A DNA stretch of 64,000 bases from Anaerolineae bacterium (GTDB taxonomy: Bacteria; Chloroflexota; Anaerolineae; JAAEKA01). Below the pieces are notes generated by a model that had not been told where the DNA came from, made no database searches, and saw only the letters and a list, made by a program, of their open reading frames with translations. The stretch covers positions 4,279 to 68,278 of the forward strand of contig JBAQCH010000345.1 of the NCBI GenBank assembly GCA_049294015.1, given 5' to 3'. The translations under genes and the position numbers were made by a program. How positions within the stretch are numbered: position 1 is the first letter of the stretch; each line of letters begins with the position of its first letter. Shown in pieces: positions 8,909 through 51,660 of the stretch.

Positions 8909-11695
<2,787 letters not shown>

Positions 11696-14791: not shown

Positions 14792-14811
14792 ACGCATGAC
14801 GAGAGATCACC

Positions 14812-15852: not shown

Positions 15853-16013
15853 CGGACAGGAGGTAGATATGACATATTGATTCTAAGCATTGAGTTTTCC
15901 GGCTCGTCGACATGTGGATGCCCCACATCATGGTTGACGCAGGAGATAAGGTGCGCTACAAGCGCAGCCGTCCAGTCGCCAACTAACCCATCAGCAAACA
16001 GGAGAGTTGAACC

Positions 16014-17525: not shown

Positions 17526-17670
17526 GGAGACTTCACCCACCGTGCAGGGCCGGAACATCGGCGTGATGATGAAGCCAGATCCTAACTAGACCTGGATCGT
17601 CGAGAGAGTATGGAAAGTGACTAGGCGGCTGGAATGCTTCTGCCGCCTGGTCACTTCCAGTGGAGTCACA

Positions 17671-18582: not shown

Positions 18583-18600
18583 GTGAAGGAGCGTGCTTCA

Positions 18601-19443: not shown

Positions 19444-19503
19444 TCCTACGCAGACTGGAATTCAGTCATTCTCTGACCATAGCCTGATGAATCGGAGTAA
19501 TCA

Positions 19504-25933: not shown

Positions 25934-26089
25934 CATTGTTTGGAGCCGACGCCCACCCTTGCGCTCATAACCACCCTGTCATGCTCGCAATGGTGCCAGT
26001 GATTCGAGCGTGTCTTGCTAGCGGGGCGGGTGAGCGCGGCTCACACCAACCGTTAGATGCAGGTCACATTGTGTCTCCCCTCCCCAACT

Positions 26090-26260
26090 TCCCCGTGCAT
26101 CCGGCGCGCTGATGTGGAGGTGCACTGCAGCCTTGAGGCGGCTGGCGATGCGGCCGTGGTACTGGCTGAACTCGCGCTCCGTCTAGTTGGACGTGACCAC
26201 CGTGGGCAGGTCGTGGTTGACGCGGTAGTTGATCAGCTGGTAGAGCTTCTCCCGCGCCCA
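26090..26260 (-). pseudogene. Fragment A of a DnaC/helicase-loader-like C-terminus with an internal stop (W to *), just downstream of the DnaB-DnaC gene
   Basis: Minus strand reads …REKLYQLINYRVNHDLPTVVTSN*TEREFSQYHGRIASRLKAAVHLHISAPDARG. It is ~85-90% nucleotide-similar to 50600-50790 and 51481-51660. It is homologous to the C-terminus of the loader domain of 26329..28527 (LYDLLDQRMAL…). Confidence 0.4.
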
Positions 26261-26328: not shown

Positions 26329-28527
26329 CTAGAACCTCGCCTCTTCCTCCCACACCGGCAGCGCGCTGAAATCCACCAGCACTGGCCGGCCGCGCTTCAG
26401 GCCCCTCTGGGCTGTGGCTACCCCTAGATGTCCATGCTGAGCTAGCTGTTGTGCAAACTCCGCCGGCAACTGGTTCAGCACCAGCAGCACTGGCCCCTGC
26501 CGGCCGCCGGTCAGCGCCATTCGCTGGTCCAGCAGATCATACAGATAGCCCACGCTCCACTCGGTAGTGCCCTTGTCGGGATCGTCCAGGATCAATACCG
26601 GTGCCTGGGTCTGCTGCCACACCTCCGCCTCGCGTCCGTTGCCATTGAAGGTGCCCTTGATCTCGCGCATGTAGCTGCGCCAGTTGAGCCACACGGCTGG
26701 CATGCCGTGCTCCAGGATCAGCGCGCGCTGCACGATGCGCGCGAGCAAGGTCTTGCCGCGGCCACTGGGGCCGAAGAAGATGGCGAAGCGGCCCTCCAGC
26801 AGGGCCGACGCCACCTGCTCCTGCGCCTGCTGCAACACCGCCGCCCGCGCGCCAACGGCCAGGAAGTCGGTGACCACAGGCGGCGTCGCGCCGTTGCGGC
26901 TCTTAGCCAGCGCAGACAGCTCGCGCAGCACCGCTTCATCCAGCCGCTGGCTGCTGGCCAGGGCCTGCCCCACCTGGGTCACCAGGCGTTTGGGATCGCC
27001 CTCCATCTGCTTGACCTGCGCGCGGCCCTGCTGCAAGACCAGCTCCAGTCCCAGCGGGTGTAGCTGCCAGTCGGCCCAGGTGTAGGGAAGCGCCTCACAC
27101 TGGCGCAGCAGCTCCAGCCGGTGTGCGCGGCGGTCGGCCTCGCCGAAGATCAGCGGCTCCGGCGTGAACTGGGAGTAGCGCGGGTTCCAGCCCACCGGGA
27201 AGTCGCCGATCTGGCCGTTGCGCGCCTTGGCCAGGATCAGCGTGGCCCGGTTGACGTCGGCCTCGGGCACGAACTGGCTCTCCCGGTGGATGAAGACGAT
27301 CACCGACGCGTCCTTCTCCCACTGGCTCGATCCTTCCAGGTCGGACATCCTGGGCCGCTTGTCCGCGCGCTTGTCGACCTCGCGGTTGAGCTGCGCCACC
27401 ACGATCACTGCGATGTGTAGCTCCTTGGCCAGCGCCTTGAGTTGGCGCGAGATGTACGCCAGCTCCTGAGTGCGGTTCTCTGTGCGCAGGCCGGCTGTCA
27501 GGAGCTGCACGTAGTCCACGACCACGAACTGGATGGCGTGGCGCAGGTGCAGGCGCTTGACGCGCGCGGCCAGATCGGCCATGGTCAGGCTGGCCGAGTC
27601 GTCGACCAGCAGGTTGTCGGTGCTGGCCCGGGCGCGCGCCGCGTCCAGCGCCTGCCAGTCCTGGATGTCGCCCAGCCTGATCTGGATGGCGGTGTAGCCC
27701 GACTCGGGCGCGAGAATGCGCTCGCCCACCTGGGTGTCCTGCATCTCCAGCGAGAAGACCGCGCCGCGCGCGCCGGTCTTGGCCGCCTGGTGCGCGATGC
27801 CCAGCGCCAGCGCGGTCTTACCGCCGCCCGGGGGCGCGGCCAGCACGATGACGTCCGAAGGCCACATGCCGCCGGTGCGCCGGTCCAGCTCGGGGATGCC
27901 GAAGGGGATGGAGACTTCGTGCCCCTCCGCGCGCAGCCGCGCGTGTTCCCTGGCCTGGGCCACGGTGTCGTTCAACACTGCGGTCAGCGTCTTGGCCCTG
28001 CGCTCTCCCTTGCGCTGGACTGCCGTCTCCACCAACTCCACAGCGCCGGCGCAAAGCCGGTCGATGCTCTTGACTTCGTAGACCGACTGGGCAATCTGGC
28101 CGGCCGCGCGCAGCAGCCGGCGAGCCACCGCGCGCTCCTCCACGATGCGCGCGTAGTGCGTCGCATGGATGGCCGTGGGCACGGCGTTGATCAAGTCCAT
28201 GACGTAGGCCGGCCCGCCCGCTTCGTCCAACTGCCGGCGGCGTTCCAGCTCGTCGGTGACGGTGAGGAAATCGGCCTTCGAGTCCTTGCCGTTCAGGTCC
28301 AGGATGGCCTGGTAGATCCAGCCATGTTTCTGCAGATGGAAGTCGTCAGCGGCCAGCAGCTCGGCGACCTCCACCACGGCGTCGGGATCGATGAGGATGG
28401 ACCCAAGCACAGCCTGCTCTGCCTCGACGTTGGCAGGGATTGGGGGTTCGTTGGGATTCGGTTCGTACACGCAGGGACCTCTTGGCACGCAGGTGAGATT
28501 TCCGGGAACCGGTTCCGACAGGCTCAA
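26329..28527 (-). CDS. Replicative helicase DnaB fused to a DnaC/IstB-like AAA+ helicase-loader domain. Start uncertain: TTG at 28527 or GTG near 28468.
   Basis: DnaB N-terminus PANVEAEQAVLGSILIDPDAV. RecA-like Walker A AAPPGGGKTALALG. DnaB C-terminus ILAKARNGQIG. A second P-loop domain FFGPSGRGKTLLA…VLILDD follows. Confidence 0.75.
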   Translation of the reverse strand: MSLSEPVPGNLTCVPRGPCVYEPNPNEPPIPANVEAEQAVLGSILIDPDAVVEVAELLAADDFHLQKHGWIYQAILDLNGKDSKADFLTVTDELERRRQLDEAGGPAYVMDLINAVPTAIHATHYARIVEERAVARRLLRAAGQIAQSVYEVKSIDRLCAGAVELVETAVQRKGERRAKTLTAVLNDTVAQAREHARLRAEGHEVSIPFGIPELDRRTGGMWPSDVIVLAAPPGGGKTALALGIAHQAAKTGARGAVFSLEMQDTQVGERILAPESGYTAIQIRLGDIQDWQALDAARARASTDNLLVDDSASLTMADLAARVKRLHLRHAIQFVVVDYVQLLTAGLRTENRTQELAYISRQLKALAKELHIAVIVVAQLNREVDKRADKRPRMSDLEGSSQWEKDASVIVFIHRESQFVPEADVNRATLILAKARNGQIGDFPVGWNPRYSQFTPEPLIFGEADRRAHRLELLRQCEALPYTWADWQLHPLGLELVLQQGRAQVKQMEGDPKRLVTQVGQALASSQRLDEAVLRELSALAKSRNGATPPVVTDFLAVGARAAVLQQAQEQVASALLEGRFAIFFGPSGRGKTLLARIVQRALILEHGMPAVWLNWRSYMREIKGTFNGNGREAEVWQQTQAPVLILDDPDKGTTEWSVGYLYDLLDQRMALTGGRQGPVLLVLNQLPAEFAQQLAQHGHLGVATAQRGLKRGRPVLVDFSALPVWEEEARF

Positions 28528-35822: not shown

Positions 35823-38120
35823 TCAGTTCCCTCGGAACCGGTTCCGCAGCATGTCGCCCAGGAAGGTGACGCGGCGCACGCGCTCCTCGTTCTGGACGTA
35901 GGTCTGCAAGGCCGACTGAGCCGAGATCAGCACACAGTAGGTCTTGGCCCTGGTCAGCCCGGTGTAGGCCAGCTGGCGCAGCATGAAGTCAGGGCGGGTG
36001 GTGGGAAGGGCCAGCACCACGTGGCCATGCTCGCTGCCTTGGCTTTTGTGGACGGACAGCGCATAAGCCAGCTTGAGATAGCCCAGGTCCTCGCGCGTGT
36101 AGGTGGTGACGTCCGGCTCGCCGTCGAACTGCACGTCGAGTACCGGTGGCAGCTCGTCGTCGCCCTCTTCCCTGCGCCGGATATCCATTCCGCGCTCTTC
36201 CTCGTCGCTGGCCACCCACTGCACCATGCCCACCATGCCGTTGAGCACAGTCTGGCCGCGAAGATCGTAGACGTTTCGGGTGTGGATCACCTTGTCGCCC
36301 GGCTTGAAGGGACAGCCCTTGAGCGGGAACGGCCCAGGGTTGTAGCGCTCCTGCAGGCGCAGGTTGAGCGCGTGCTGGCCCCAGGGATGGTTGTTCAAGG
36401 GTGTCAGCACCTGGATGTCGTGGATGGACAAGCCGCAAGCGATAAGATCGCTTACCCACCGCAAGAGATGTGTGGGCAATGATGCATTGCTGCTTGCATA
36501 CTCGATCTCGATGTCGTCGTAGCCCGACAGATCAGGCACCAGGCCGCGGTTGAAGCTGTGGGCCGCCACGATGATGCCGGAATGCTTGCCCTGGCGGTGG
36601 ATGACTGTGAGGCGCGCGACAGGTACCACACCGCTGTGGATCAGCTGGAAGAAGGGTTCGCCCGCGCCCACCGGCGGCAGCTGATCCACGTCGCCCACGA
36701 AGATCAGCCGCGTTCGGTCGTTGCACGCCTTGACGATCCGGCGCATGAGGGCCGCATCGATCATCGAGGCTTCGTCGATGGTCACTGCATCAGTCTGGAA
36801 GCTGTACCTGGCCTCTTCATCGCCGAAGATGCCCAGGGTGCGGTGGATGGTGGCGGCCGGCAGCCCGGTGGCCTCGGTCATGCGCCGCGCAGCCTTGCCG
36901 GTGGGCGCGCACAACGTCAAGCTCAGGCCATGCGCCTGCATGATGTTGCAGATGGTGCGCAACACTGTCGTCTTGCCCACGCCGGGCGCGCCGGTGATCA
37001 CCACCAGCCGATGGGCCAGCGCCAGCCGCACCGCCTCTACCTGATCGGGCGAGAGGGCGAAGTCGCTGTATTCGTCCAGGCAGCGGCGAATGGTTTCCCA
37101 GTCGCCCACCGCCGCGCCAGGGTTCTGAAGCATCCGCGCGATGCCGGCCGCAGTCTCTTCCTCGATCTCGAAGTAGGGTGCCAGGTACAGCCACTCGCCT
37201 TGTAAGAGCAGGTAGTCGTCCTCGTAGCGCGCCCGCACCTTCTGCTCGAAGCCGTCCAGGCGGGGCCTGGCCAGCTGGCGCGCGCGCTGAAGGGCATCGG
37301 TCTCAGCCAGCGCCATGTGCCCTTGGGTGTAGGCCTCGCGCAGCACCTCCCGCACAGCCGCGCCATAGCGCCGCGCGTCGTCGTGATCGATCTTTGCCTT
37401 GCCCGGCCAGGCCAGCGCCGCGATCTCGTCCGCGCGCTGCCAGGTGACGCCATTGATCACTGTGAGCAGGTAAGGGTTGTCGTTGATGATCTGCACCAGC
37501 CGCTCGCCGAAGCGCTGGTAGGCTTCCCTGGCCTGGCGCGTCGTCAGCCCCGCGCGCACCGAAGCAAGCGCGGCCTGCGCCCAGTGCCGCTGCGCTTTCC
37601 ACGACTCCACGATCCAGTAGCAGTTCTTGGGGCCGATGCCCGACACTACCCGCAGCTTGTTGGGATCGTCCAGCGCCTCGTCCAGCCGCGCGAAGGTTGC
37701 CGCACCGAAGGCCTGGGCGATGCGCTGGGCCATGGCGACCTTGACGCCCTTCAAGAAGCCGCTGGCCAGCAGCACTTGCAGGGCGCTGGCCTGGTCAGTG
37801 AGCATCACGCTGGACGCCTTGAACTGCCGGCCATAGTGCGGGTGATCCACCCACTGGCCGGCCACTGTTACCTGCGCGCCTGGGGCCAGGAACATGGCCG
37901 TACCCACCAGCGGGATCTCGCCCTTGCCGCGGCGCAGCGTGGCCACGAAGAAGCCGGTGGCGGGATCGCGGTAGCCGACCGCCACGATCTCGCCGGTGAT
38001 GACCGGCTCGTCGGGAAGGGCGTCGCTGGGCGCCGGGCCTGGCCCATAGCTCACCGTCCAGGTGGGCGCTGGCTCCAGCAGCTCCAGCAGGTTGTCTGGG
38101 TCGGGTGTGTAGAACATCAT
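35823..38120 (-). CDS. RecD/RecD2-like SF1 DNA helicase
   Basis: Walker A VITGAPGVGKTTV. IDEASMID. FVGDVDQLPPVGAG. LTRAK near the C-terminus. The last codons, RNRFRGN, are encoded by a GGAACCGGTTCC palindrome. Confidence 0.8.
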   Translation of the reverse strand: MMFYTPDPDNLLELLEPAPTWTVSYGPGPAPSDALPDEPVITGEIVAVGYRDPATGFFVATLRRGKGEIPLVGTAMFLAPGAQVTVAGQWVDHPHYGRQFKASSVMLTDQASALQVLLASGFLKGVKVAMAQRIAQAFGAATFARLDEALDDPNKLRVVSGIGPKNCYWIVESWKAQRHWAQAALASVRAGLTTRQAREAYQRFGERLVQIINDNPYLLTVINGVTWQRADEIAALAWPGKAKIDHDDARRYGAAVREVLREAYTQGHMALAETDALQRARQLARPRLDGFEQKVRARYEDDYLLLQGEWLYLAPYFEIEEETAAGIARMLQNPGAAVGDWETIRRCLDEYSDFALSPDQVEAVRLALAHRLVVITGAPGVGKTTVLRTICNIMQAHGLSLTLCAPTGKAARRMTEATGLPAATIHRTLGIFGDEEARYSFQTDAVTIDEASMIDAALMRRIVKACNDRTRLIFVGDVDQLPPVGAGEPFFQLIHSGVVPVARLTVIHRQGKHSGIIVAAHSFNRGLVPDLSGYDDIEIEYASSNASLPTHLLRWVSDLIACGLSIHDIQVLTPLNNHPWGQHALNLRLQERYNPGPFPLKGCPFKPGDKVIHTRNVYDLRGQTVLNGMVGMVQWVASDEEERGMDIRRREEGDDELPPVLDVQFDGEPDVTTYTREDLGYLKLAYALSVHKSQGSEHGHVVLALPTTRPDFMLRQLAYTGLTRAKTYCVLISAQSALQTYVQNEERVRRVTFLGDMLRNRFRGN

Positions 38121-39952: not shown

Positions 39953-40180
39953 TCAGCGCTCCGCAAAGGAGAAGGTGTCGCGCGCGCGGAAGGCACACAG
40001 ACAGGTGGTGCAGGTCACGCTGGCGACAAAGGCGTTCAGCCCGGCCCGAATAGCCGTGGGCCGCAGCGCTGCGCCGCAGAAGGGACAGGAGGGCAGTTCC
40101 ATGGCCATCAGCTCCTCCGAGCTGACGTTGTCCAGGATGAACAGCCGCTCCTTACCTGTAGGCGTGATCGCGTCGCTCAT
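39953..40180 (-). CDS. Zinc-ribbon small protein
   Basis: CPFCGA…CTTCLC. Confidence 0.35.
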   Translation of the reverse strand: MSDAITPTGKERLFILDNVSSEELMAMELPSCPFCGAALRPTAIRAGLNAFVASVTCTTCLCAFRARDTFSFAER

Positions 40181-40523
40181 GGAGCAGCTCCCGGGCCAGC
40201 CCTACCTGCCGGTCCATGTCCGCCGCGGCCTGGCTGCGGGCGATGTCCATGTCAGGGCGTAGGGCCTCCCAGGCCGCGACCAGGGCGCGCAGCCGCCCTG
40301 CCGTCTGGTTCGCAGCCTCCGGCAGGCGGATGCCGCGCGCCACGCCGGGATCGCGCTGGATGGCGCCCGCTTCAGCCAGGCGGACGAGATCCCTGGTCAG
40401 CGTATGCAAGGCGCACAGGCCCAGGGCATGGATGTCTCGCACGCTGGGCGCATAGCCTTTGCTGGCGATGTGCTGTTCGATAAAGGCCAGGATGGCCTGC
40501 TGTCGGTCGTTCAGGTCTAGCAT
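40152..40523 (-). CDS. LexA-like winged-HTH DNA-binding domain protein lacking the S24 peptidase domain, i.e. a non-cleavable LexA paralogue
   Basis: MLDLNDRQQAILAFIEQHIASKGYAPSVRDIHALGLCALHTLTRDLVRLAEAGAIQRDPGVARGIRL aligns to the LexA N-terminal domain. The real start is ATG 40523, overlapping the upstream stop. No Ser-Lys dyad region. Confidence 0.6.
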   Translation of the reverse strand: MLDLNDRQQAILAFIEQHIASKGYAPSVRDIHALGLCALHTLTRDLVRLAEAGAIQRDPGVARGIRLPEAANQTAGRLRALVAAWEALRPDMDIARSQAAADMDRQVGLARELLHERRDHAYR

Positions 40524-41506
40524 CAAATGGTCTCCTCGACGATCTGCGCCAGGTAGGTTGAGATGATCTCCTGCATGCCTTTGCCTTCTTTGAGCAAGGT
40601 GCGGATGCGCTGGATGATCTCGCGGAAGTAGGCGAAGTCCACGCCGGTGAGCTGTTCTTCCCAGACGCGCGGGTCGTCCCAGTCCAGTCTGGCCAGCTGC
40701 AAGCTCAGCACCAGCAGGTGGCCCGCGTGAGGCCGGGTGAAGCCGCGCTGCACGAACTTGAAGGCGCGCAACAGCGCGGCCAGCGGATACTGCGAACCCA
40801 CGTAGCGCAGCTCGCGCGCCAGCAGGCATTCCAGGGCCTCGGTGTTGGTCACCAGCCCATCCTGGAAAGTCCAGTAGTTGGTGACGTGCGCCCAGTCGAA
40901 GCTCTTGTGGATCTCGGCCGGGTCGCCACTGAAGCGCAGGATCACCTGCACCGGTGGCAGCTTGCGGTTCTCGCGCGCCAGGGTGATGGCGTTGCCGGAC
41001 AGGGCCACCGGCCAGTAGTCCTTGTCCTTGCCGTAGTCCGAGCGCCGGTCGACGCCGAAGATCACCTGGGCATACTCGGCGGCCCGCTCGGGATCGCTGT
41101 CGGTGAAGGCTTCGAAGTAGTGATACTGCGCGTCGCCTGAGTGCTCGGTGAGGACGCCGGCGCTCTTCACCATCACCGCCACGTGGTCGCCGCGCGCTAC
41201 CACCTGCACCTGGCTCAGGATCGGATTGCCTTCCAGGGTGGCAGGCGGCGCGGCGATGAACTGGCGCACGTAGTGCTCGGCGATCCGCCTGGCTGTGGCG
41301 CTGTCGCGGAAGTAGACGTCCCAGTCGTTGACCGCCTCGCCCAGGAACAGGTTGGCGATCGCACCGCCGGTCAGGATCAGGTCGTCGGTGACGGACTGTT
41401 GCAGATCCTGAGGCAGGGATGCTACCCAGCCTTCCATGGCCTTGCGGCAGACGCGTTCGATGGTCTTGGTCTTCATGTTTGGTTCTCCTTGGCTGAAGTT
41501 TGCCAA
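40523..41506 (-). CDS. Polymerase-beta-fold nucleotidyltransferase-like protein
   Basis: LTGGAIANLFLGEAVNDWDVYF follows the NTase signature G[GS]x9-13DxD. It is translationally coupled to the LexA-like gene. Confidence 0.45.
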   Translation of the reverse strand: MANFSQGEPNMKTKTIERVCRKAMEGWVASLPQDLQQSVTDDLILTGGAIANLFLGEAVNDWDVYFRDSATARRIAEHYVRQFIAAPPATLEGNPILSQVQVVARGDHVAVMVKSAGVLTEHSGDAQYHYFEAFTDSDPERAAEYAQVIFGVDRRSDYGKDKDYWPVALSGNAITLARENRKLPPVQVILRFSGDPAEIHKSFDWAHVTNYWTFQDGLVTNTEALECLLARELRYVGSQYPLAALLRAFKFVQRGFTRPHAGHLLVLSLQLARLDWDDPRVWEEQLTGVDFAYFREIIQRIRTLLKEGKGMQEIISTYLAQIVEETI

Positions 41507-44262: not shown

Positions 44263-44674
44263 GAGGCATGTACCTTTCCAGCAGTTTGTCTCTGGTGCGC
44301 AAGGGAATGTCAGGGTCTTCTTTCAACAGCCGGGCGATGCGCTCAGGCGTCGGTTGTGGCAGCCAGCCCAGCCGGGCCAGTTCCTCGCTCAGGTCCGCCT
44401 GCAGCAGCCAAGACTCGACGAAGGCCAGTTCGGCGCGCGGCAGCTCGTCGAAGGAACGCACTCGCCGTCGATAGCCCTCGCCGTCGGAAAGGGCATAGCC
44501 GGCCAGGTCCAGCCGCGCGGCCCGGACGAGCCGGCCCTTGAAACCGGCCAGGTCGCTGGTTGGCATAAGGCGCTTGATGCGCTCGTCGATGCGATCTATG
44601 GCCACGCTCAGTTCCTCAGCTTCCGGGAAGGTGAACCATCCGTGCTGCGCACGCAGGTCGTTCAGGCTCTTCAT
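44252..44674 (-). CDS. Hypothetical protein
   Basis: Overlaps the next gene by 11 nt. Confidence 0.45.
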   Translation of the reverse strand: MKSLNDLRAQHGWFTFPEAEELSVAIDRIDERIKRLMPTSDLAGFKGRLVRAARLDLAGYALSDGEGYRRRVRSFDELPRAELAFVESWLLQADLSEELARLGWLPQPTPERIARLLKEDPDIPLRTRDKLLERYMPRDA

Positions 44675-44731
44675 GGCAATGGGTGCGAGTCGAATTCTGA
44701 CAGAAGCTCATCCGGAACCCGGTTCCGCGAT

Positions 44732-45994
44732 CTAGCGCGCGGCGTAGCTGACGATCACCCTCGCAGCCACCTGGGCCACTGCGTCCACGTGCGCGGCCGT
44801 GGCGTCGTCCGTGCCATACTCGACGTGCGCCGCCTCGTGCAGCCAGGTGGCGACAGCATCCTTGAGGTCGTCCAGCACCGAGATGTCCAGCGCAATGCGG
44901 CCTTCCAGCGCCTGGCCCAGGATGCTGGGCGGCAGCATGTAGGGCTGCACCTCATGCTGGATGCCGGCCCGCTGCGACAGCCGCCGCACCAGGTCCAGCA
45001 CCCGGCGCTGCGCCGCGCTCAGCCGGCTCTTGGGATAGAGGGTGGACGCCCGGCCGGACAGCGCAGCCAGCTCCTCGCGGTCGGTGCCGATGATCTCCTT
45101 GGCTGTCTCTTCCAGGCCCCATTGCAGATGCACAGGCTTCAGGCCGCGGTACTCGGCCTCGCGCTGCGTCACCGCGTCGGTAGCCACCACCGCGCGGCTG
45201 CCAAAGGCCTGGCGCAGGGCCGCGGCCTGGGCCTTGGGCGCCTGCACGTCACGGAAGGCCATGTGGGTGTCCGCCTCAGCCTGCCGGTCGGCCACGGCCT
45301 GCCAGAAGCGGGCGAGCAGCTCTTGGTTCGCGACGTTGGCCCACAGCCGGCCGATCTCGCGGCTGGCCTGCCAGGCGTCGGCCAGCTGGCGGTCCTCGGC
45401 CAGCTTGAGGTTGAGGTTGTAGCCGAAGGCGCAGGACGTTCCGTAGGGCCGCGCGGGGCCGATCCAGAGGCCCTTGACGTAGAACTGCGGCTCAGCCTCC
45501 TCCAGGATCATGCGGCCGGCCTCGTCGGTGAACAGCACGCGCTCATCTCCCGGCCGGATCACGCGCTCCTGCCACAGCTCGCCCGCGTAGGCCAGCTCGT
45601 AGCGAGAGCCGTCGAAGAACGCGCCCTCGTCCCAACACACCTCCATCACCTGCTGGCCGTACAGGTCAGCCCAGCGCGCGTGCAGGCCGTGGAACTCGCC
45701 CGAGGTGAGGCTGAAAGGCACACCCTCGCGCAAGAGCACCAGCCAGCCCAGCTTGGTGCCCTCGCCGAACTGGCCGCGCTGCTGTTCGGTCTTGTCTGAG
45801 CCGCCCAAGAGCAGGTGGCGCAGGGCCATGTGCGCGCCGCGGCCTTCGATGACCGTCTTGCCATCGGCCTGTTCGACGGTCCAGGTTTGGAACAAGTCGA
45901 GGAACTCCTGCCAGATGCATTCCCGGAAGGCGTCCCACAACTGCCACTGGGCGCGGTAGTCGCGCGTGATTGGGTAGATGATGCTCGGCATAGT
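44732..45994 (-). CDS. Hypothetical protein carrying a HEAAH (HExxH-like) motif near the C-terminus
   Basis: Start MPSIIYP with a GAGGAGG RBS. WLHEAAHVEYGTDDATAAH. Confidence 0.5.
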   Translation of the reverse strand, partial: TMPSIIYPITRDYRAQWQLWDAFRECIWQEFLDLFQTWTVEQADGKTVIEGRGAHMALRHLLLGGSDKTEQQRGQFGEGTKLGWLVLLREGVPFSLTSGEFHGLHARWADLYGQQVMEVCWDEGAFFDGSRYELAYAGELWQERVIRPGDERVLFTDEAGRMILEEAEPQFYVKGLWIGPARPYGTSCAFGYNLNLKLAEDRQLADAWQASREIGRLWANVANQELLARFWQAVADRQAEADTHMAFRDVQAPKAQAAALRQAFGSRAVVATDAVTQREAEYRGLKPVHLQWGLEETAKEIIGTDREELAALSGRASTLYPKSRLSAAQRRVLDLVRRLSQRAGIQHEVQPYMLPPSILGQALEGRIALDISVLDDLKDAVATWLHEAAHVEYGTDDATAAHVDAVAQVAARVIVSYAAR

Positions 45995-46150
45995 GCAAAC
46001 CTCCTCAGTCAGATTTGGCTCGCACTGCGCCTTCGGCGCTACGTGGCAGGTCATGGCTAGGTGTGCAGGCAACATCAGAGCGTAGGGCAGGTGTTGGACA
46101 GGCGCGGCTGCGCCGATTTGCAGAAATAGAACGTTTGGGCTATAACAGGT

Positions 46151-46381
46151 TCATCTGCTTTTCGCCTTGCCAGCGGGCGGCGGCTGGTCTTGCTGATCAG
46201 ACAGCAGCTCAACCGCCGCCTCCGGAAAGGCCTCTGAAAACTTGGCCCAAAAAGTGCCGGACACATGCTCGCGGGCCAGCGCTCGGCTCACCGAGGTGCG
46301 CAGGTAGCCGATCCGATTTGCCACCACTTGCTGCGTCAGATGGTGGGTGACGATCCACTGTTTGATCCGGGCGCTTCGCAT
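46151..46381 (-). CDS. Cro-like XRE-family HTH regulator, first gene of the leftward operon
   Basis: HLTQQVVANRIGYLRTSVSRAL is the HTH. AAGGAG RBS. It is divergent from the cI-like gene. Confidence 0.6.
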   Translation of the reverse strand: MRSARIKQWIVTHHLTQQVVANRIGYLRTSVSRALAREHVSGTFWAKFSEAFPEAAVELLSDQQDQPPPAGKAKSR

Positions 46382-46411
46382 ATAGGCTCCTTAGCAGAGG
46401 TCAGATTTCTT

Positions 46412-46425
46412 AGAACGCATGTTCT
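46412..46425. promoter_or_regulatory. Candidate LexA (Cheo-type GAAC-N4-GTTC) SOS box AGAACGCATGTTCT within the leftward early promoter
   Basis: Inverted repeat AGAAC-GCAT-GTTCT. It sits between the -10 and the RBS of the cro-like gene. Confidence 0.45.
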
Positions 46426-46432
46426 GTTGAAA

Positions 46433-46461
46433 ACTATATCATGGCTGAATCTGTCCGTCAA
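46433..46461 (-). promoter_or_regulatory. Leftward sigma70-like promoter TTGACG-17 nt-TATAGT for the cro-like/early operon
   Basis: On the minus strand, TTGACGgacagattcagccatgaTATAGT is followed 7 nt later by the SOS-like box. Confidence 0.45.
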
Positions 46462-46561
46462 TACCCCCTGTCGCGCAACTGAAACATATTGGTCAACCAA
46501 TTTTTCGGCGTAGAACTGAAATAGATTTGAAGACGAGATTCGGGCTGATCGCCTGCGCCTG

Positions 46562-47056
46562 TTGATGAAGGAAAAGCGCCTTTTCACCGCTGGACTGTTG
46601 GCCCTGCTGCGCTGCACGGATGGCAATGAACGCGTTAACCGGCCTACCCTATCCAAGTTGGTCAACGGCAGCTACGGCGCTACGCCCTCGGTTAACGTGG
46701 TGCGCGGCCTGGCGCAGGCCCTGAACGCCACGGCAGACTACCTGCTAGGGCTATCCGACGAGCCACAGCCTGGCGCGATGGCCTTCCTCCGTCGCTATGG
46801 GCTGGCCGACGAGGAACAACTGCTGAGCTTGCTGGCGGAGCGCAACGCGGAGATGGCTAAGATCATGCGCGCCGTCCGTGACATCCCCGATGAGGAACAG
46901 GAAGTGATCTTGCAGCATCTTATGAACGATCTTCTCTTCATTCGGCACATGGCGGCCGAGCGCGCGGCGGCACAAGCCAACAGTGGCGCCAACCGCCGAG
47001 ACCCGCCTGCCAACAGCCCACTATACCTATCTTGGGATACCGACGATGACCACTGA
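46562..47056 (+). CDS. cI-like XRE-family HTH regulator without an S24 peptidase domain
   Basis: LSKLVNGSYGATPSVNVVRGLAQALNATADYLLGLSD is the HTH. No Ser/Lys peptidase region. Confidence 0.55.
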   Translation: MMKEKRLFTAGLLALLRCTDGNERVNRPTLSKLVNGSYGATPSVNVVRGLAQALNATADYLLGLSDEPQPGAMAFLRRYGLADEEQLLSLLAERNAEMAKIMRAVRDIPDEEQEVILQHLMNDLLFIRHMAAERAAAQANSGANRRDPPANSPLYLSWDTDDDH

Positions 47057-47447
47057 AACACCTGATACTCCTGGCAGCCGGCTGCGCAAGGCGCGCGAGC
47101 GCCTGGGATTGCAGCAGATCGAACTGGGCAGGAAGCTGGGCGTGTCCGGCTCCTACATCTCCCGCATCGAACGCGACGTGGTGAAGATCCAGCCTATGGT
47201 GCTGCGCCTGGCCGAGGCGCTGGACGTGAGCGTGGACTACCTGTTGGTCTTACGCGACACACCGCAGCGCGACGCCACAGGGACTGCGCTCTACGAGTCC
47301 ACCCAGGACGAGCTGGTGGCCATACGCCTTCTGCGCATGGTCATCGACGGGCTGCCGCCGGAAGATCGCGTGCGGCTGATCCACTACCTGATCAAGCAGG
47401 CTGGCATCTACAAAGAAACCTTCCAAGCGACGCGCGACAGAGACTGA
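47046..47447 (+). CDS. XRE-family HTH regulator
   Basis: LRKARERLGLQQIELGRKLGVSGSYISRIERDVVKIQPMVLRLAEALDVSVDYLL. Start taken at MTTETP. Confidence 0.55.
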   Translation: MTTETPDTPGSRLRKARERLGLQQIELGRKLGVSGSYISRIERDVVKIQPMVLRLAEALDVSVDYLLVLRDTPQRDATGTALYESTQDELVAIRLLRMVIDGLPPEDRVRLIHYLIKQAGIYKETFQATRDRD

Positions 47448-47629
47448 CGCTTCACTTGGCTGGGCCCAGAACCCGGTTCCGGCCTGCCGCCGGCTGCATC
47501 CAGCCCGCCTGCGCACGCCGTAGAGCCTGTTCCGATGACGATGGGAGGGCGCCCTAGTGACCTTCCACGCTGTCTTTGTTTCACGACGTAACTTGATCGA
47601 TTATCAAAGTAGTTATATAATCCTATCTG

Positions 47630-47944
47630 ATGAAACCGTTGCGATTTATTGGCTCAAGTCTGGATGATTTGCGTGACTTCCCTGCCGAGGCGCGTAGGCA
47701 GGTAGGTTTCGAGCTCTATGCCGTGCAGCGCGGGTTGGAGCCAACGGACTGGAGGTCAATGCACGAGGTTGGGCCAGGTGTCCGCGAGATCCGCATTCAC
47801 GTTCTTGGTGAATGGCGTGTGCTCTACGTGGCCAGGTTTGCCGGGGCCATCTACGTGCTACATGCCTTTCGCAAGAAGACGCAGAAAACACGGCGTGAGG
47901 ACATCGAACTTGCGCGCCAGCGCTGTCGTCAGATCGAGGAGTGA
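47630..47944 (+). CDS. RelE-superfamily Gp49/HigB-like toxin, copy 1
   Basis: MKPLRFIGSSLDDLRDFPAEARRQVGFELYAVQRGLEP…YVLHAFRKKTQKT. Paired with the HTH gene 4 nt downstream. Confidence 0.6.
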   Translation: MKPLRFIGSSLDDLRDFPAEARRQVGFELYAVQRGLEPTDWRSMHEVGPGVREIRIHVLGEWRVLYVARFAGAIYVLHAFRKKTQKTRREDIELARQRCRQIEE

Positions 47945-47947
47945 ACC

Positions 47948-48244
47948 ATGAGTGAGATGATCATCGAGTCCAGCGGCAATGTCTTTTCGGATCTTGGATT
48001 TGAACCTGGGGAAGCAGCGATTCTGCAGATGCGGGCCAAACTGATGAGCGACCTCCGCATGCGTATCGAGGCCAGCGGCATGACGCAGACGGAGGCGGCG
48101 CACAAGCTGGGCATTGCCCAATCGCGTGTGTCTGACCTGATGCGCGGCAAGTGGGAGAAGTTTAGCCTGGAAATGCTGATCACTCTGGAGGCGCGGTTGG
48201 GGCGCCAGGTGCATCTCGAATTCGCCGCCGCTGCAGCTAACTGA
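47948..48244 (+). CDS. HTH (XRE) antitoxin partner of the Gp49-like toxin, copy 1
   Basis: TQTEAAHKLGIAQSRVSDLMRGKWEKFSLEMLITLEARLG. Confidence 0.6.
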   Translation: MSEMIIESSGNVFSDLGFEPGEAAILQMRAKLMSDLRMRIEASGMTQTEAAHKLGIAQSRVSDLMRGKWEKFSLEMLITLEARLGRQVHLEFAAAAAN

Positions 48245-48258
48245 GACGCGCAGCAGCT

Positions 48259-48582
48259 TTGACCGAGGTTAAAACAGTGGCTGCCGAGCAAGATGTTCAG
48301 CGAATTGTCCCCATCGTCCGAATACCCGGCGTGCATGGCGGCCGTCCCGTGTTGCGCGACACCGGGGTGAGCGTGCAGACCATCGTGGAGCAGTCGCAGC
48401 TAGGTCGCTCCCCGCAGCAGATCGTCGAAGACTTCGAGGATGTACTGACCCTGGCGCAGGTCCACGACGCGCTCAGCTACTATCACGAGCACCCGACCGA
48501 GGTCGATCAATTCATCGCCCAGAACCGCGAGGCGCTGTGGCAGGGATCCCCGGTAACGGCACCTGCCTGCCCTCAGAGTTGA
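48259..48582 (+). CDS. DUF433-like antitoxin-type protein
   Basis: IVRIPGVHGGRPVLRDTGVSVQTIVEQSQLGRSPQQIVEDF follows the DUF433 pattern. Confidence 0.5.
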   Translation: MTEVKTVAAEQDVQRIVPIVRIPGVHGGRPVLRDTGVSVQTIVEQSQLGRSPQQIVEDFEDVLTLAQVHDALSYYHEHPTEVDQFIAQNREALWQGSPVTAPACPQS

Positions 48583-48699
48583 CGCGCCCGATGAAAACAT
48601 GATTGTGGTGGATTAGCAACGGGAGTTCACGGAGTGTGGCAGTTTCTTCCCATTTGACACACACCGCGAGCACGACGACGGCATCGGCGCAGGGACGAT

Positions 48700-49137
48700 A
48701 TGAGGCTTGCCATGACGCTAAAACCGATCAAGAGTGAAGAGGATTACGCAGCAGCGTTGCAGGAGATCGAGCAGCTCTGGGATGCCGAGCCAGGCACGCC
48801 GGAGAGCGACACGCTGGAGATTTTGATCACGTTGGTCGAAGCTTATGAGCGGGGGCGCTACGACCTTCCCTCTCCTGATCCGATTGCTGCGTTGGAGTAC
48901 TTCATGGAGAGCCGCGCTTGGACGCGCAAGCAATTGGAGCCCTACATCGGCAGTCGCGGCCGCGTTTCGGAGATTCTCAGCCGCAAGCGGCCACTGACGT
49001 TGGCGATGATCCGTCGTCTAGAACAGGCCACTGGGATCCCGGGTTCGGTGCTCATCCAGCCCTATGAGACCGAACACGGCCATTCCGGCGTGACATCGCG
49101 CAATCTCTCACGCGTCAGCCAACTTGCTACCAGGTAA
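48700..49137 (+). CDS. HigA-like HTH antitoxin, E. coli HigA type, apparently orphan
   Basis: SRGRVSEILSRKRPLTLAMIRRLEQATGIPGSVLI matches the C-terminal HTH of E. coli HigA. Confidence 0.55.
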   Translation: MRLAMTLKPIKSEEDYAAALQEIEQLWDAEPGTPESDTLEILITLVEAYERGRYDLPSPDPIAALEYFMESRAWTRKQLEPYIGSRGRVSEILSRKRPLTLAMIRRLEQATGIPGSVLIQPYETEHGHSGVTSRNLSRVSQLATR

Positions 49138-49199
49138 GCTGTTTTCGACCGCCCTGAGACCGCCGCCGTTGTCGGTCTAGCCGCTGCAATGAAGATGAT

Positions 49200-49469
49200 A
49201 TGGCCCTGAACGATCTGCCCAGCGATATGGAACGGCTAGAGGAAGAACTTCGCCACTTCGAGGCTAGGTTCGGTATGAAGTCCCAAGATTTCCACGACGC
49301 CATGCGGCGCGGCGACCTGGGGGAATTCGACGCGCTGGACGACTACCGCATGGAGTTTGTCGAGTGGCTTGCACTCTACAAGACGCGGGCCAGCCTGGAT
49401 GAGAGGTATCGCCGCTTGGCCGGCCCAATGACGCCATCAGACGCTCCCTCGTGGGATGCTGCTGGCTAG
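49200..49469 (+). CDS. Hypothetical small acidic protein
   Basis: Protein-like composition. It overlaps the higA stop region. Confidence 0.35.
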   Translation: MALNDLPSDMERLEEELRHFEARFGMKSQDFHDAMRRGDLGEFDALDDYRMEFVEWLALYKTRASLDERYRRLAGPMTPSDAPSWDAAG

Positions 49470-49783
49470 GCAGGAACAGCCAGCGGTTGTATGCGCATCA
49501 GGTCCGCCTGGCTGCGTCGCTCCGACTCCCAGAGGTCCCTGGCCTGCTGAGCGTTGAGCCAGAACGCAGCCGAGTTGCCGAACAGGCGGGACAGGCGCAG
49601 CGCCATCAGCGGCGTGACCGCCCGCTCCTCGCGCAACAGCTCGTGAACGGTCTGGCGCGACACACCCAACGCCGTAGCCAGCGCACTGGTCGTCAATCCG
49701 TAATCCGGCATGAAGTCCTCGCGCAACATCTCGCCCGGATGCGTCGGTGGGATCTGTCGTGGTTCTGTGTTCGCGATGGCCAT
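49466..49783 (-). CDS. higA: HigA-family HTH antitoxin
   Basis: EMLREDFMPDYGLTTSALATALGVSRQTVHELLREERAVTPLMALRLSRLFGNSAAFWLNAQ. Confidence 0.65.
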   Translation of the reverse strand: MAIANTEPRQIPPTHPGEMLREDFMPDYGLTTSALATALGVSRQTVHELLREERAVTPLMALRLSRLFGNSAAFWLNAQQARDLWESERRSQADLMRIQPLAVPA

Positions 49784-49795
49784 CGTTCTTACACC

Positions 49796-50077
49796 TCAGT
49801 GATAGTCCGCAATCTCAACATCGTAGGCATCACCAGCCACGAAACGAAAGCAGATGCGCCATTGGTCGTTGATCGAGATGGCGTATTGCCCTTCCCGATC
49901 ATCCTTCAGGGCATGAAGGCGGTTGCTCGGCGGTACTTTGAGATCGCTCAATTCGCTTGCCAGGTCGATGTACTCCAATCTTCGCACGGCTCGCTTCACC
50001 AGGTCAGGCGGCAGTCGCCTTGACTTGCCGGTGACGTAGAGTTGTTGCGTTTCTCGATCGGCAAACGTTTTGATCAT
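49796..50077 (-). CDS. higB: HigB-family (RelE/ParE-fold) toxin
   Basis: MIKTFADRETQQLYVTGKSRRLPPDLVKRAVRRLEYIDLA… is the classic HigB N-terminus. It lies upstream of higA. Confidence 0.65.
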   Translation of the reverse strand: MIKTFADRETQQLYVTGKSRRLPPDLVKRAVRRLEYIDLASELSDLKVPPSNRLHALKDDREGQYAISINDQWRICFRFVAGDAYDVEIADYH

Positions 50078-50313
50078 GGAATGATTGTAACGCGTCACGT
50101 GACAGTTGTCAAGCTGCAAAGCTGTCCAATGTCGGGCGCAGCGGAAAGAAGATGCCCACCAATCTGCGGCCTATCCGACCACGTTGACCACATGTTTGAC
50201 AGGAAGAAAGCAGGCGAGTACAATCTGCGTCAGGCCCAGTTAATGGTGCCAGAAGGCGGCCAACACCCACCAAGGGACTATCGTGCTTGAGAGGTGCCCG
50301 CCCAACCAGTGAA

Positions 50314-50329
50314 CCACTATATATAGTGG
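50314..50329. repeat. Perfect 16-bp palindrome CCACTATATATAGTGG beside a tRNA fragment
   Basis: ACTACAT(A/C)T arm-like repeats lie nearby at 50348-50356 (+), 50440-50448 (inverted) and 50470-50476 (+). Confidence 0.5.
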
Positions 50330-50383
50330 TTGTCTAACCAAATAGACACTACATATGGGCATATTGCTTGGACAACTGAACTT

Positions 50384-50433
50384 AGGGCTTCATAATCCCT
50401 AGGTCGGTGGTTCGAGCCCACCCGTCGCCACCA
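50384..50433 (+). tRNA. tRNA-Met(CAU) 3' portion only (anticodon arm, variable loop, T-arm, acceptor 3' strand, CCA). There is no matching 5' half, consistent with an att-site scar.
   Basis: AGGGC-TTCATAA-TCCCT, AGGTC, GGTGG-TTCGAGC-CCACC, CGTCGCC-A-CCA. The upstream sequence cannot pair with CGTCGCC. Confidence 0.5.
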
Positions 50434-50483
50434 AGCACAATATGTAGTAGTCCGAAAATCCAGGCGCATACTACATCTAGTGG

Positions 50484-50513
50484 CTCCCGCTGCAAAGCGG
50501 GAGTTCGTTTTTT
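50484..50513 (+). terminator. Intrinsic terminator, an 8-bp stem CTCCCGCT-GCAA-AGCGGGAG followed by TTCGTTTTTT
   Basis: Classic GC stem plus T-tract, 50 nt after the tRNA 3' end. Confidence 0.65.
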
Positions 50514-50599
50514 CGCCTGCCAACAGAAAGAAGTGCGCGCCTGGGAGAGCAACGCCTACATCCCGACGCAGGAGCGGGGCCTCTCCTCGTCCTGCGTCA

Positions 50600-50790
50600 G
50601 TAGCTCGGTGCTGGTTTTGTGCGCCTGGCCGAACACTACCTGCCCACGATGGTCGCATCCAACTGGACGGAGCGCGAGTTCAGCCAGTATCACAGCCGCA
50701 TCGCCAGCCGCCTCAAGGCCGCGGTGCATGTCCACATTAGCGCGCCGGATGCGCGGGGAAAGATTGGGAGAGGAGGATCGCCATGACCAA
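50600..50790 (+). pseudogene. Fragment B of the DnaC/loader-like C-terminus
   Basis: EHYLPTMVASNWTEREFSQYHSRIASRLKAAVHVHISAPDARGKIGRG. No upstream part and no start. Confidence 0.4.
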
Positions 50791-50825: not shown

Positions 50826-51119
50826 CTATGCGACTGCTCCGGCAAACTCCAAGATCACCTGGCGTCCCATGCGAGCTTCCAGGGTGACCAGCATCTCAAG
50901 ACTGAACTTCTCCCACTTGCCGCGCATCAAGTCAGACACGCGCGACTGGCCGACGCCCAGCCGTTGCGCAGCTTCAGTCTGCGTCATGCCGCTGGCCGTG
51001 ATGCGTTCCCGCAGATCGTTCATCAGCTTGGCCCGCATCTGCAAGATCGCTGCCTCGCCAGGCTCAAACCCCAGATCAGTGAAGACATTGCCGCTGGACT
51101 CGATGATCACCTCATTCAT
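50826..51119 (-). CDS. HTH antitoxin, inverted copy 2
   Basis: ~90% identical to 47948..48244. Confidence 0.6.
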   Translation of the reverse strand: MNEVIIESSGNVFTDLGFEPGEAAILQMRAKLMNDLRERITASGMTQTEAAQRLGVGQSRVSDLMRGKWEKFSLEMLVTLEARMGRQVILEFAGAVA

Positions 51120-51122
51120 GAC

Positions 51123-51437
51123 TCACTCCTCAATCTGCCGAAAGCGCTGGCGCGCCAACTCAATATCCTCACGCCGCGTCTTCTGTGTCTTCTTGCGAAA
51201 TGCGTGCAACACGTAGATGGCGTCGGCAAACCGGGCGACGTACAGCACGCGCCATTCGCCCAACACGTGGACACGAATCTCCCGAACACCGGATCCGACC
51301 TCGTGCATCGGCCGCCAGTCCGAAGGCTCTAGCCCGCGTTGGACAGCATAGAGTTCGAAGCCGACCTGCCGCCGCGCCTCGGCAGGAAAGTCGCGCAGGT
51401 CATCCAGGCTAGAGCCGACAAAGCGCAGCGGTTTCAT
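51123..51437 (-). CDS. Gp49/HigB-like toxin, inverted copy 2
   Basis: ~95% identical to 47630..47944. The same promoter stretch, TATCAAAGTAGTTATATAAT, sits upstream. Confidence 0.6.
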   Translation of the reverse strand: MKPLRFVGSSLDDLRDFPAEARRQVGFELYAVQRGLEPSDWRPMHEVGSGVREIRVHVLGEWRVLYVARFADAIYVLHAFRKKTQKTRREDIELARQRFRQIEE

Positions 51438-51480
51438 TACGTCTGATTATATAACTACTTTGATAAGGGGCCAAGTTACA

Positions 51481-51660
51481 CGATTACCGCGTGCAGCAAT
51501 GCACCACGACCTGCCCACGGTGGTTACATCCAACTGGACGGAGCGCGAGTTCAGCGAGTATCACAGCCGCATCGCCAGCCGCCTCAGGGCCGCGGTGCAT
51601 GTCCACATTAGCGTGCCGGATGCGCGGGGGAAGATTGGGAGAGGAGCCGTGTTGTGAGCT
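51481..51660 (+). pseudogene. Fragment C of the DnaC/loader-like C-terminus
   Basis: …NHDLPTVVTSNWTEREFSEYHSRIASRLRAAVHVHISVPDARGKIGRGAVL*. Confidence 0.4.

What the first reader, a model, noticed from the sequence alone, without database searches (positions are those of the whole stretch)
50314..50513. tRNA-Met(CAU) 3'-half with arm-type repeats and native terminator: attachment-site scar of an integrative element
The sequence 50384-50433 folds as anticodon arm (CAU), variable loop AGGTC, T-arm GGTGG-TTCGAGC-CCACC and acceptor 3' strand plus encoded CCA. The preceding 40 nt cannot form the D-arm or the complementary acceptor strand (GGCGACG is absent). Around it lie ACTACAT(A/C)T direct and inverted repeats and a perfect 16-bp palindrome, arranged like integrase arm sites. 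A textbook intrinsic terminator follows. This is the expected attR-type remnant for an element integrated at the 3' end of a tRNA-Met gene. The intact tRNA copy (attL) and the integrase are not in this window.
Basis: partly seen in the sequence, partly recalled or inferred. Interest (0 to 1): 0.55.

Follow-up and report, generated by a model that had tools for sequence, protein, structure and literature searches.

The report
tRNA-Met attachment site between mobile elements
This is an ordinary attachment-site junction left by mobile elements that insert into a methionine tRNA gene in Chloroflexota bacteria, and both of its flanks, including the 'terminator', come from such elements rather than from the host.

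Summary
The described sequence features are all present. Window 50384-50433 is 100% identical to positions 27-76 of intact elongator tRNA-Met(CAU) genes of Anaerolineae/Caldilineales MAGs. No tRNA is called anywhere in the window.

The site belongs to a conserved ~390-bp attachment module of a Chloroflexota integrative-element family.
- **Left arm (P):** a promoter, a 16-bp palindrome and ACTACATAT. It is contiguous with a cargo element that is 92-93% identical to elements in two other MAGs.
- **The 28 nt before the core:** these look like a decayed tRNA 5' half. Related elements carry a whole tRNA at exactly this position.
- **Right arm (P'):** ATATGTAGT, ACTACATCTAGTGG and the hairpin terminator. 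This arm is not the tRNA's native flank. It recurs 3' of intact tRNA-Met genes in other genomes, directly upstream of a tyrosine integrase gene.
- **Integrase:** only codons 68-110 of that gene survive in the window (50506-50634).

Chimeric D-loop/T-loop tRNA types occur only at such junctions, which places the crossover between the D loop and the T loop.

Best reading: this is the right-end junction of the left-hand element, fused to the fossil left arm of an older, decayed element, as in a tandem or nested array. The intact tRNA and a working integrase are not in the window. It is a new member of a well-known kind and of low interest.

The parts
44339..50195 (.). Right-hand portion of the left-hand integrative element. 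It carries a 447-aa protein gene, XRE regulators, toxin-antitoxin modules (Gp49/HTH_37, DUF433, HigB/HigA) and the start of the left (P) arm.
   Evidence: 92-93% nt identity to DNA lying left of the P arm in L030 and L057. Logan contigs L001-L004 link HigBA to the P arm.
50196..50224 (+). Sigma-70-type promoter TTGACA-17-TACAAT on the P arm, reading towards the tRNA-derived segment.
   Evidence: 11 of 12 matches. It is conserved in L003, L030, L057, L059 and L095.
50314..50329 (.). Perfect palindrome CCACTATATATAGTGG, made of two inverted copies of the ACTAYATNTAGTGG motif. It is a candidate protein-binding site of the P arm.
   Evidence: CCACTA-N4-6-TAGTGG is conserved in L003, L030, L057, L094 and L095.
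50348..50356 (+). ACTACATAT, the last 9 nt of the P arm. In related elements it abuts position 1 of a full tRNA.
   Evidence: L030 and L057 have AATAGATACTACATAT directly 5' of an intact tRNA-Met.
50357..50383 (+). Probable decayed tRNA 5' half, corresponding to tRNA positions 1-27.
   Evidence: It has the same length as in L030 and L057, which carry an intact 5' half there. The comparison spans 28 nt (50357-50384, tRNA positions 1-28): 12 of 28 are identical and 11 of 16 mismatches are transitions, P = 0.004. The same decayed version occurs in L003/L004, L094, L095 and L096.
50384..50433 (+). tRNA-Met(CAU) 3' portion (from the 3' end of the D stem, through the anticodon and T arms, to the encoded CCA). 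This is the attachment core.
   Evidence: 100% identical over 50 nt to intact tRNA-Met in L016 and L068. ARAGORN calls those genes tRNA-Met. No tRNA is called here.
50440..50448 (-). Inverted copy of ACTACATAT, the first conserved motif of the right (P') arm.
   Evidence: CAATATGTAGT lies 6-10 nt 3' of the tRNA in L008, L024, L030, L041, L056, L070, L073 and L080.
50470..50483 (+). ACTACATCTAGTGG motif of the P' arm, overlapping the foot of the terminator stem.
   Evidence: It is conserved as ACTRYATSTAGTGGCTCCCG in L024, L056, L059, L073 and L080.
50482..50515 (+). Hairpin plus T-run (intrinsic terminator) belonging to the element's P' arm, not to the host tRNA locus.
   Evidence: The homologous hairpin GGCTCCCG...CGGGAG plus T-run follows the tRNA in L024, L030, L056, L059, L073, L080 and L094-L096. 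Sites without this arm have a different hairpin.
50506..50634 (+). Tyrosine-integrase pseudogene remnant. Only codons 68-110 of a ~324-aa integrase remain.
   Evidence: tblastn with the L080 integrase gives 27/43 identical, E = 1e-7. That integrase scores PF00589 at E = 3.5e-36. DNA homology to L080 and L096 is shown.
50634..50775 (+). Repeat D1, copy B. It starts exactly where the integrase homology ends and so marks the breakpoint that truncated the integrase gene.

Best explanation
The site is an attachment junction of a family of tyrosine-integrase integrative elements that target the elongator tRNA-Met(CAU) gene of Chloroflexota (Anaerolineae/Caldilineae).

The family's attachment module is built on a captured tRNA gene:
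- a left arm (P) with a promoter, a palindrome and ACTACATAT;
- the tRNA;
- a right arm (P') with ATATGTAGT, ACTACATSTAGTGG and a terminator hairpin;
- the integrase gene directly after the right arm.

Integration crosses over inside the tRNA, between the D loop and the T loop, most likely at the invariant anticodon stem-loop. After integration the left junction is host promoter, chimeric tRNA, element terminator, then integrase. The right junction is element promoter, the element's tRNA 5' part, the host's 3' part, then the host flank. The element's 3' half must stay perfect because it rebuilds the host tRNA. In this lineage the element's 5' half was free to decay.

In the window, the P arm and the decayed 5' half belong to the large element on the left. 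The perfect 3' core, the P' arm and the 43-codon integrase stub belong to an older, decayed element that already occupied the tRNA gene. The site is therefore the right-end junction (attR) of the left element, formed by insertion into a tRNA whose 3' flank was already element-derived. This is a tandem or nested array.

Shown: sequence homologies, arm conservation, the integrase remnant and the chimeric tRNA types.
Inferred: the order of events, protein binding to the repeats, and the exact crossover point.
For: - The core is identical to intact tRNA-Met genes.
- The P' arm with its terminator is conserved 3' of intact tRNA-Met in five other loci and is followed by a PF00589 integrase.
- An integrase remnant sits at 50506-50634.
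- The P arm is conserved, and the left-hand element is 92-93% identical to L030 and L057.
- L057 has a P arm, an intact tRNA and a downstream flank without the P' arm. L024, L073 and L080 have the initiator tRNA, tRNA-Met, the P' arm and the integrase.
- The two common tRNA types are GCGGTTA/AAGT (50 loci) and GCGGCCA/GAGC (12 loci). Recombinant combinations occur only at loci carrying a P or P' arm: L024, L057 and L080.
- The identical P arm with the decayed 5' half is joined to a different P' type plus intact int1 and int2 in L094 and L096. It is joined to the window-type P' in L095, which lies on the same 294-kb contig as L096.
- Tandem arrays and anticodon-centred attP sites are common in tDNA islands (PMC4383910).
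Against: - No intact tRNA-Met and no integrase homologue lie in the 50 kb to the left, so the left element's other end is unseen.
- The window-type P' arm was never seen next to an intact integrase (window, L095, L056), so calling it an older element is an inference.
- Homology of the 28-nt decayed 5' half is statistically modest. 12 of 28 matches gives a binomial P of about 0.02, and 6% of window 28-mers match as well.
- The source genome itself was not found in the genome collection, so a second core copy in the same genome is untested.
Confidence: 0.6

Rival explanations
1. It is an unrecombined attP of a single element. On this reading P, core, P' and integrase are the element's own circular-form junction. 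The element then sits in this replicon by some other route, or the region is episomal, and its integrase was later destroyed by deletion.
For: - The order cargo, P, core, P', integrase is exactly the attP order seen with an intact integrase in L094 and L096.
- Window 4214-4406 is homologous to DNA lying 3.6 kb beyond the integrase in L096 and just after the P' arm in L030. This suggests a circular permutation.
- No attL was found in the window.
Against: - The same P arm is joined to two different P' types: the L080 type in L094 and L096, and the window type in the window and L095. At least one of these arrangements must join different elements.
- The integrase stub is only 63% identical to the int1 that goes with this P arm elsewhere.
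- DNA to the right (GH3 glycosidase, ABC permease) looks like host metabolism.
Confidence: 0.25
2. It is a simple attR scar: element on the left, displaced host tRNA 3' half, then the host's native terminator and host DNA.
For: - The left flank is a mobile element.
- The 3' half is a perfect tRNA.
- A terminator follows it.
Against: - The 80-nt right flank including the terminator is homologous to the element arm that precedes integrase genes in other genomes.
- An integrase fragment follows it in the window.
- Sites without that arm carry a different hairpin.
Confidence: 0.1
3. It is a functional tRNA-like or split-tRNA RNA gene, for example a 3'-half RNA transcribed from the 50196 promoter to the 50513 terminator with a role of its own.
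For: - A conserved promoter and terminator bracket a ~280-nt unit.
- The predicted fold is more stable than shuffles, z = -4.85.
Against: - The predicted fold is dominated by the palindromes and the terminator and does not form the T arm.
- The L003/L004 variant has two substitutions that break the anticodon stem, with no compensation.
- There is no Rfam or ARAGORN hit.
- The promoter and terminator are fully explained by serving the two tRNA copies after integration.
Confidence: 0.04

Closest known systems
tDNA-targeting genomic islands and prophages with anticodon-centred attP (Islander class 'A'; Williams 2002 sublocation scheme, cited in PMC4383910)
   Same: - A tyrosine integrase lies adjacent to the attachment site.
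- The attP carries the 3' part of the target tRNA, so integration regenerates the gene.
- A displaced tRNA fragment marks the island's far end.
- Tandem arrays occur at one tDNA.
   Different: - In this family the attP is built on a whole tRNA gene with its own promoter and terminator, and the 5' half has decayed in this lineage.
- The window copy has element arms on both sides and only an integrase stub.
- The hosts are uncultured Chloroflexota.
Haemophilus phage HP1-type attachment sites with long attP/attB identity spanning whole tRNA genes (from my own knowledge, not checked here)
   Same: The element carries far more tRNA sequence than the crossover needs, so full-length tRNA copies appear at both junctions (as in L024 and L057).
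   Different: The integrase is unrelated, the target tRNA is different, and no phage structural genes were detected here.
Integrase-less or integrase-decayed islands in tandem arrays
   Same: The attachment site is retained while the integrase is truncated (window, L059) or absent (L030). An intact integrase is present in a neighbouring copy (L080, L096).
   Different: Mobilisation in trans is only an inference here. No excision product was observed.

Membership tests
tDNA island end (displaced tRNA fragment, Islander definition) | An end fragment (3') of a tRNA gene, not internal to it and not itself a full tRNA | tested here: met
   50384-50433 equals tRNA positions 27-76 at 100% identity. 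No tRNA is called.
tDNA island end (displaced tRNA fragment, Islander definition) | A cognate full-length tRNA gene in the same replicon, in the same orientation, upstream of the 3' fragment | tested here: inconclusive
   None is present in window 1-50383. The rest of the replicon is not available, and the source genome is not in the genome collection.
tDNA island end (displaced tRNA fragment, Islander definition) | An integrase gene between the tDNA and the fragment | tested here: inconclusive
   tblastn with three family integrases finds nothing left of the site within the window. The island may extend beyond the window start.
tDNA island end (displaced tRNA fragment, Islander definition) | Host (non-element) DNA on the far side of the fragment | tested here: not met
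   The right flank is the conserved element P' arm plus an integrase remnant.
attP-type module of this Chloroflexota element family (P, tRNA core, P', integrase) | Both conserved arms flank the tRNA-derived core | tested here: met
   Alignments with L030, L057, L059, L003 and L094-L096.
attP-type module of this Chloroflexota element family (P, tRNA core, P', integrase) | An intact tyrosine integrase gene directly after the P' arm | tested here: not met
   Only codons 68-110 remain. The gene is intact in L080, L094 and L096.
attP-type module of this Chloroflexota element family (P, tRNA core, P', integrase) | Site-specific crossover within the tRNA | tested here: inconclusive
   Chimeric D-loop/T-loop types occur only at arm-bearing loci, which places the crossover between about positions 21 and 56. 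The exact overlap is unknown and there is no biochemical test.
Functional tRNA gene | A cloverleaf with a paired acceptor stem and a D arm | tested here: not met
   ARAGORN and Rfam are negative. By my own reading of the sequence, the 5' strand GGGCATA pairs at only 4 of 7 positions with CGTCGCC.

The most novel reading that the evidence does not exclude
The attachment module may be more than a recombination site. The conserved P-arm promoter, palindrome, (pseudo-)tRNA and terminator lie directly upstream of the integrase only in the circular or tandem configuration. They could act as a switch that couples integrase expression to the excised state. Alternatively they could produce a tRNA-like regulatory RNA. 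Integrase-less copies such as the window's would then be mobilised in trans by intact neighbours in the array.
Probability: 0.12. Interest if true: 0.4.

Novelty: new member of a known kind. Interest (0 to 1): 0.2.

Why it matters
It adds a documented tRNA-Met-targeting integrative-element family to the mobile elements known from uncultured Chloroflexota (Anaerolineae/Caldilineae). These elements carry defence systems (Hma) and toxin-antitoxin modules between orders at more than 90% nucleotide identity. The conserved arms give a practical marker for delimiting such islands in MAGs. The site also shows how a "native terminator" next to a tRNA fragment can itself be element-derived. It does not change any concept: tRNA-gene attachment sites, displaced fragments and tandem arrays are textbook.

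Tried and rejected
- **ARAGORN and Rfam** (gathering threshold, and permissive E-value on 48.5-51.5 kb) found no tRNA, intron or tmRNA. An intron-split or permuted tRNA is therefore rejected.
- **Second core copy in the window:** none, even with up to 3 mismatches.
- **Logan contig ends inside the core.** I first read these as evidence of a repeat in the same genome. On inspection the contigs stop exactly before the polymorphic T-loop base. This is explained by k-mers shared with other tRNA-Met genes in the community, so I do not count it as evidence.
- **Extending the window leftwards** by exact-protein look-up gave only 2.2 kb more and no integrase.
- **IMG/VR scans** with the 447-aa cargo protein and with the P' motif found nothing. 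The INPHARED phage search with the att region found nothing. PHROGs gave no structural phage genes. I therefore do not call the element a prophage.
- **RNA folding of the promoter-to-terminator unit** gave no tRNA-like structure.
- **Repeat D1** shows no structure, no Pfam family and no plasmid homologue. Its nature remains unknown.
- **Left-end genes of L080** (int2, 472 aa, helicase) have no homologues in the window.
- **Not run:** the large protein searches and structure prediction. They would not change the verdict.

Full report
**1. Observation**

- A tRNA 3' portion lies at 50384-50433. It has anticodon CAT at 50391-50393, variable loop AGGTC, T arm GGTGG/TTCGAGC/CCACC, acceptor 3' strand CGTCGCC, a discriminator A and an encoded CCA.
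- The complementary acceptor strand GGCGACG is absent upstream.
- The palindrome CCACTATATATAGTGG lies at 50314-50329.
- ACTACATAT lies at 50348-50356 (+) and 50440-50448 (-), and ACTACATCT at 50470-50478 (+).
- A hairpin plus T-run lies at 50482-50515.

ARAGORN finds no tRNA in the 64-kb window. Rfam finds nothing at gathering or permissive thresholds. The 23-nt core is unique in the window. The longer motif ACTACATNTAGTGG occurs five times against 0.3 expected, and four of the five lie within the finding.

**2. Which tRNA it comes from**

A scan of one genome per species for the T-arm and acceptor part gave 87 loci, nearly all from Caldilineaceae/Anaerolineae MAGs. Most are intact genes that ARAGORN calls tRNA-Met. 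Their sequence is GGCGACGTAGCTCAGGCGG(TT/CC)AGAGCGAGGGCTTCATAATCCCTAGGTCGGTGGTTC(A/G)AG(T/C)CCACCCGTCGCCA. They usually sit about 45 nt downstream of a second, 73-nt CAU tRNA that I take to be the initiator from its sequence (ARAGORN labels both genes tRNA-Met).

The window is 100% identical to L016 and L068 over 50384-50433, that is from position 27 to the CCA. The window's own genome is not among the species representatives.

**3. Both flanks are mobile-element arms**

*Downstream arm.* The segment ...CAATATGTAGT-N20-ACTACAT(S)TAGTGGCTCCCG-loop-CGGGAG-T-run recurs immediately 3' of intact tRNA-Met genes in L024, L073 and L080, where the initiator tRNA lies upstream. It also occurs in L059, L030 and L056. 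In L080 and L073 it is followed within about 30 nt by a 324-aa ORF, and in L059 by a truncated integrase start. The L080 ORF scores PF00589 (Phage_integrase) at E = 3.5e-36. A second, divergently oriented tyrosine recombinase lies next to it.

Loci without this arm carry a different hairpin after the tRNA (L016, L069, L057). The "textbook terminator" is therefore part of the element's right arm (P'), not the tRNA's native terminator.

*Integrase remnant.* tblastn of the L080 integrase against the window hits 50506-50634, covering codons 68-110 (27/43 identical, E = 1e-7). Nothing else in the window matches. The integrase next to the site is a 43-codon stub. Codons 1-67 are missing, and the homology ends exactly where repeat D1 begins at 50634.

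*Upstream arm.* Window 50131-50356 aligns with the DNA directly 5' of intact tRNA-Met in L030 and L057. The alignment includes the promoter TTGACA-17-TACAAT at 50196-50224, the palindrome CCACTA-N-TAGTGG, and AATAGAYACTACATAT abutting tRNA position 1.

Further left, window 44339-47516 is 92-93% identical to L030 (Anaerolinea sp. CH3) and L057 (Caldilineales DTUCFX11). Variable toxin-antitoxin cargo lies between (Pfam). The left side is thus the right end of a horizontally mobile element. Lower GC over 46-52 kb agrees with this.

**4. The 28 nt before the core**

In L030 and L057 the interval between ACTACATAT and A27 holds an intact tRNA 5' half. In the window the interval has exactly the same length. 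12 of 28 positions are identical, and 11 of the 16 mismatches are transitions (P = 0.004), mostly GC to AT.

The same degenerate version is present in Logan contigs L003/L004 and in JGI contigs L094-L096. I read it as a decayed tRNA 5' half inherited within one element lineage. The raw identity is only modestly significant: the binomial P is about 0.02, and 6% of window 28-mers match as well. Positional homology carries most of the weight.

**5. How the family works**

DTUCFX11 has both junction types.
- L024 has the initiator tRNA, tRNA-Met, and then the P' arm.
- L057 has the P arm, an intact tRNA, and then a flank without the P' arm.

Across all loci two tRNA types dominate: D loop GCGGTTA with T loop AAGT (50 loci), and GCGGCCA with GAGC (12 loci). 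The recombinant combinations occur only at loci carrying a P or P' arm, namely L024, L057 and L080. This is what site-specific crossover between the D loop and the T loop predicts. The invariant, partly symmetric anticodon stem-loop is the natural candidate for the crossover. That corresponds to the anticodon-centred class that accounts for 2083 of 3919 Islander islands (PMC4383910).

Two consequences follow.
- The element's terminator serves the regenerated tRNA at the left junction, and the element's promoter serves the copy at the right junction. This explains why both are conserved.
- The element's 3' half must remain perfect while its 5' half need not. This explains the asymmetry seen in the window.

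**6. What the window copy is**

It has P on the left and P' on the right, which is the attP order. Two JGI contigs (L094, L096) show the identical P arm and decayed half joined to the L080-type P' arm and intact int1 and int2. L095 lies on the same 294-kb contig as L096 and shows the same P arm joined to the window-type P' arm. One P arm with two different partners, twice on one chromosomal contig, points to tandem or nested arrays. Such arrays are known at tDNAs (125 cases in Islander).

The window's integrase stub is only 63% identical to the int1 that accompanies this P arm elsewhere. The DNA beyond it turns into host-like genes, a GH3 glycosidase and an ABC permease. My best reading, at about 0.6 confidence, has three steps.
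1. An older element integrated at tRNA-Met and decayed, leaving its P' arm and an integrase stub.
2. The large left-hand element then inserted into that tRNA.
3. The site is therefore the left-hand element's attR, and the intact tRNA and a working integrase lie further left, outside the window.

The main rival, at about 0.25, is an unrecombined attP of a single immobilised element. Window 4214-4406 is homologous to DNA just beyond the int region in L096 and just beyond the P' arm in L030, which gives that rival some support.

**7. Comparison and novelty**

This works like, and belongs with, the classical tDNA-targeting islands. It meets the "displaced 3' fragment" and "mobile DNA on the 5' side" criteria. 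It fails the "host DNA on the far side" criterion. The "cognate tRNA plus integrase" criteria cannot be decided from the window.

No hits were found in IMG/VR, INPHARED or PLSDB, and no phage structural genes were detected. The element family itself appears undescribed, but its mechanism is standard. I score it as a new member of a known kind, with interest 0.2.

Noticed in passing
window 4481-22812: A complete Hma defence system is present: HmaA 4481-8113, HmaB 8909-11695, HmaC 19504-22812, each PADLOC E = 0. It is split by a 7.8-kb lower-GC block at 11738-19443. That block encodes a TPR/HEAT/SH3 protein of 1017 aa and ABC sugar-transporter parts.
   Followed up: partly
window 26081-26218 (-), 50634-50775 (+), 51505-51646 (+): A 142-nt repeat, D1, occurs in three copies at 80-94% identity with sharp ends. 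One copy starts exactly where the integrase remnant ends. Two direct copies flank a Gp49/HTH_37 toxin-antitoxin pair. The inverted copy sits at a GC jump 3' of the DnaB-like gene. D1 has no RNA structure, no Pfam family and no plasmid hit. Its nature is unknown.
   Followed up: partly
window 47588-48227 and 50840-51479: A 640-nt inverted duplication (81%) of a Gp49-toxin/HTH_37-antitoxin pair brackets the att site. A homologous pair lies about 0.8 kb downstream of tRNA-Met in L016.
   Followed up: partly
window 50084-50224: Two divergent promoter matches with identical hexamers and spacing, TTGACA-17-TACAAT (11 of 12 to the consensus), sit back to back. One reads into the att module and the other towards higB.
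   Followed up: no
window 4214-4406; L096 (reverse) 3618-3810; L030 +209..+331 after its tRNA: A conserved ~130-190-nt non-coding module contains a TACAAT box and a GGGAGTTGCGGGCGGGACT...AGTCCCCCCTC hairpin. It lies upstream of different cargo operons in three elements. It may be a shared promoter and leader, or a small RNA.
   Followed up: partly
window 26329-28527 (-): A 732-aa protein fuses a DnaB-like replicative helicase to a C-terminal DnaC-like/AAA loader domain. With a RecD2-like helicase (35823-38120) and a protein containing a LexA DNA-binding domain (40152-40829), it suggests that the element replicates autonomously.
   Followed up: no
L067 6736-6822; L011; L079: Other Caldilineaceae genomes carry damaged extra copies of this tRNA-Met. 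L067 has a 12-nt insertion in the D arm, and L011 and L079 have D-arm substitutions or deletions. L011 and L079 lie in genomes that also hold an intact copy (L027, L042). This suggests that further element families duplicate the same tRNA.
   Followed up: no
L059 (tRNA-Met 1536-1612, initiator tRNA 3020-3094): In this MAG the usual 45-nt spacer between the initiator tRNA and tRNA-Met is replaced by 1.4 kb ending in a P-like arm. The integrase after the P' arm is frameshifted after about 14 codons. This is another decayed array member.
   Followed up: partly
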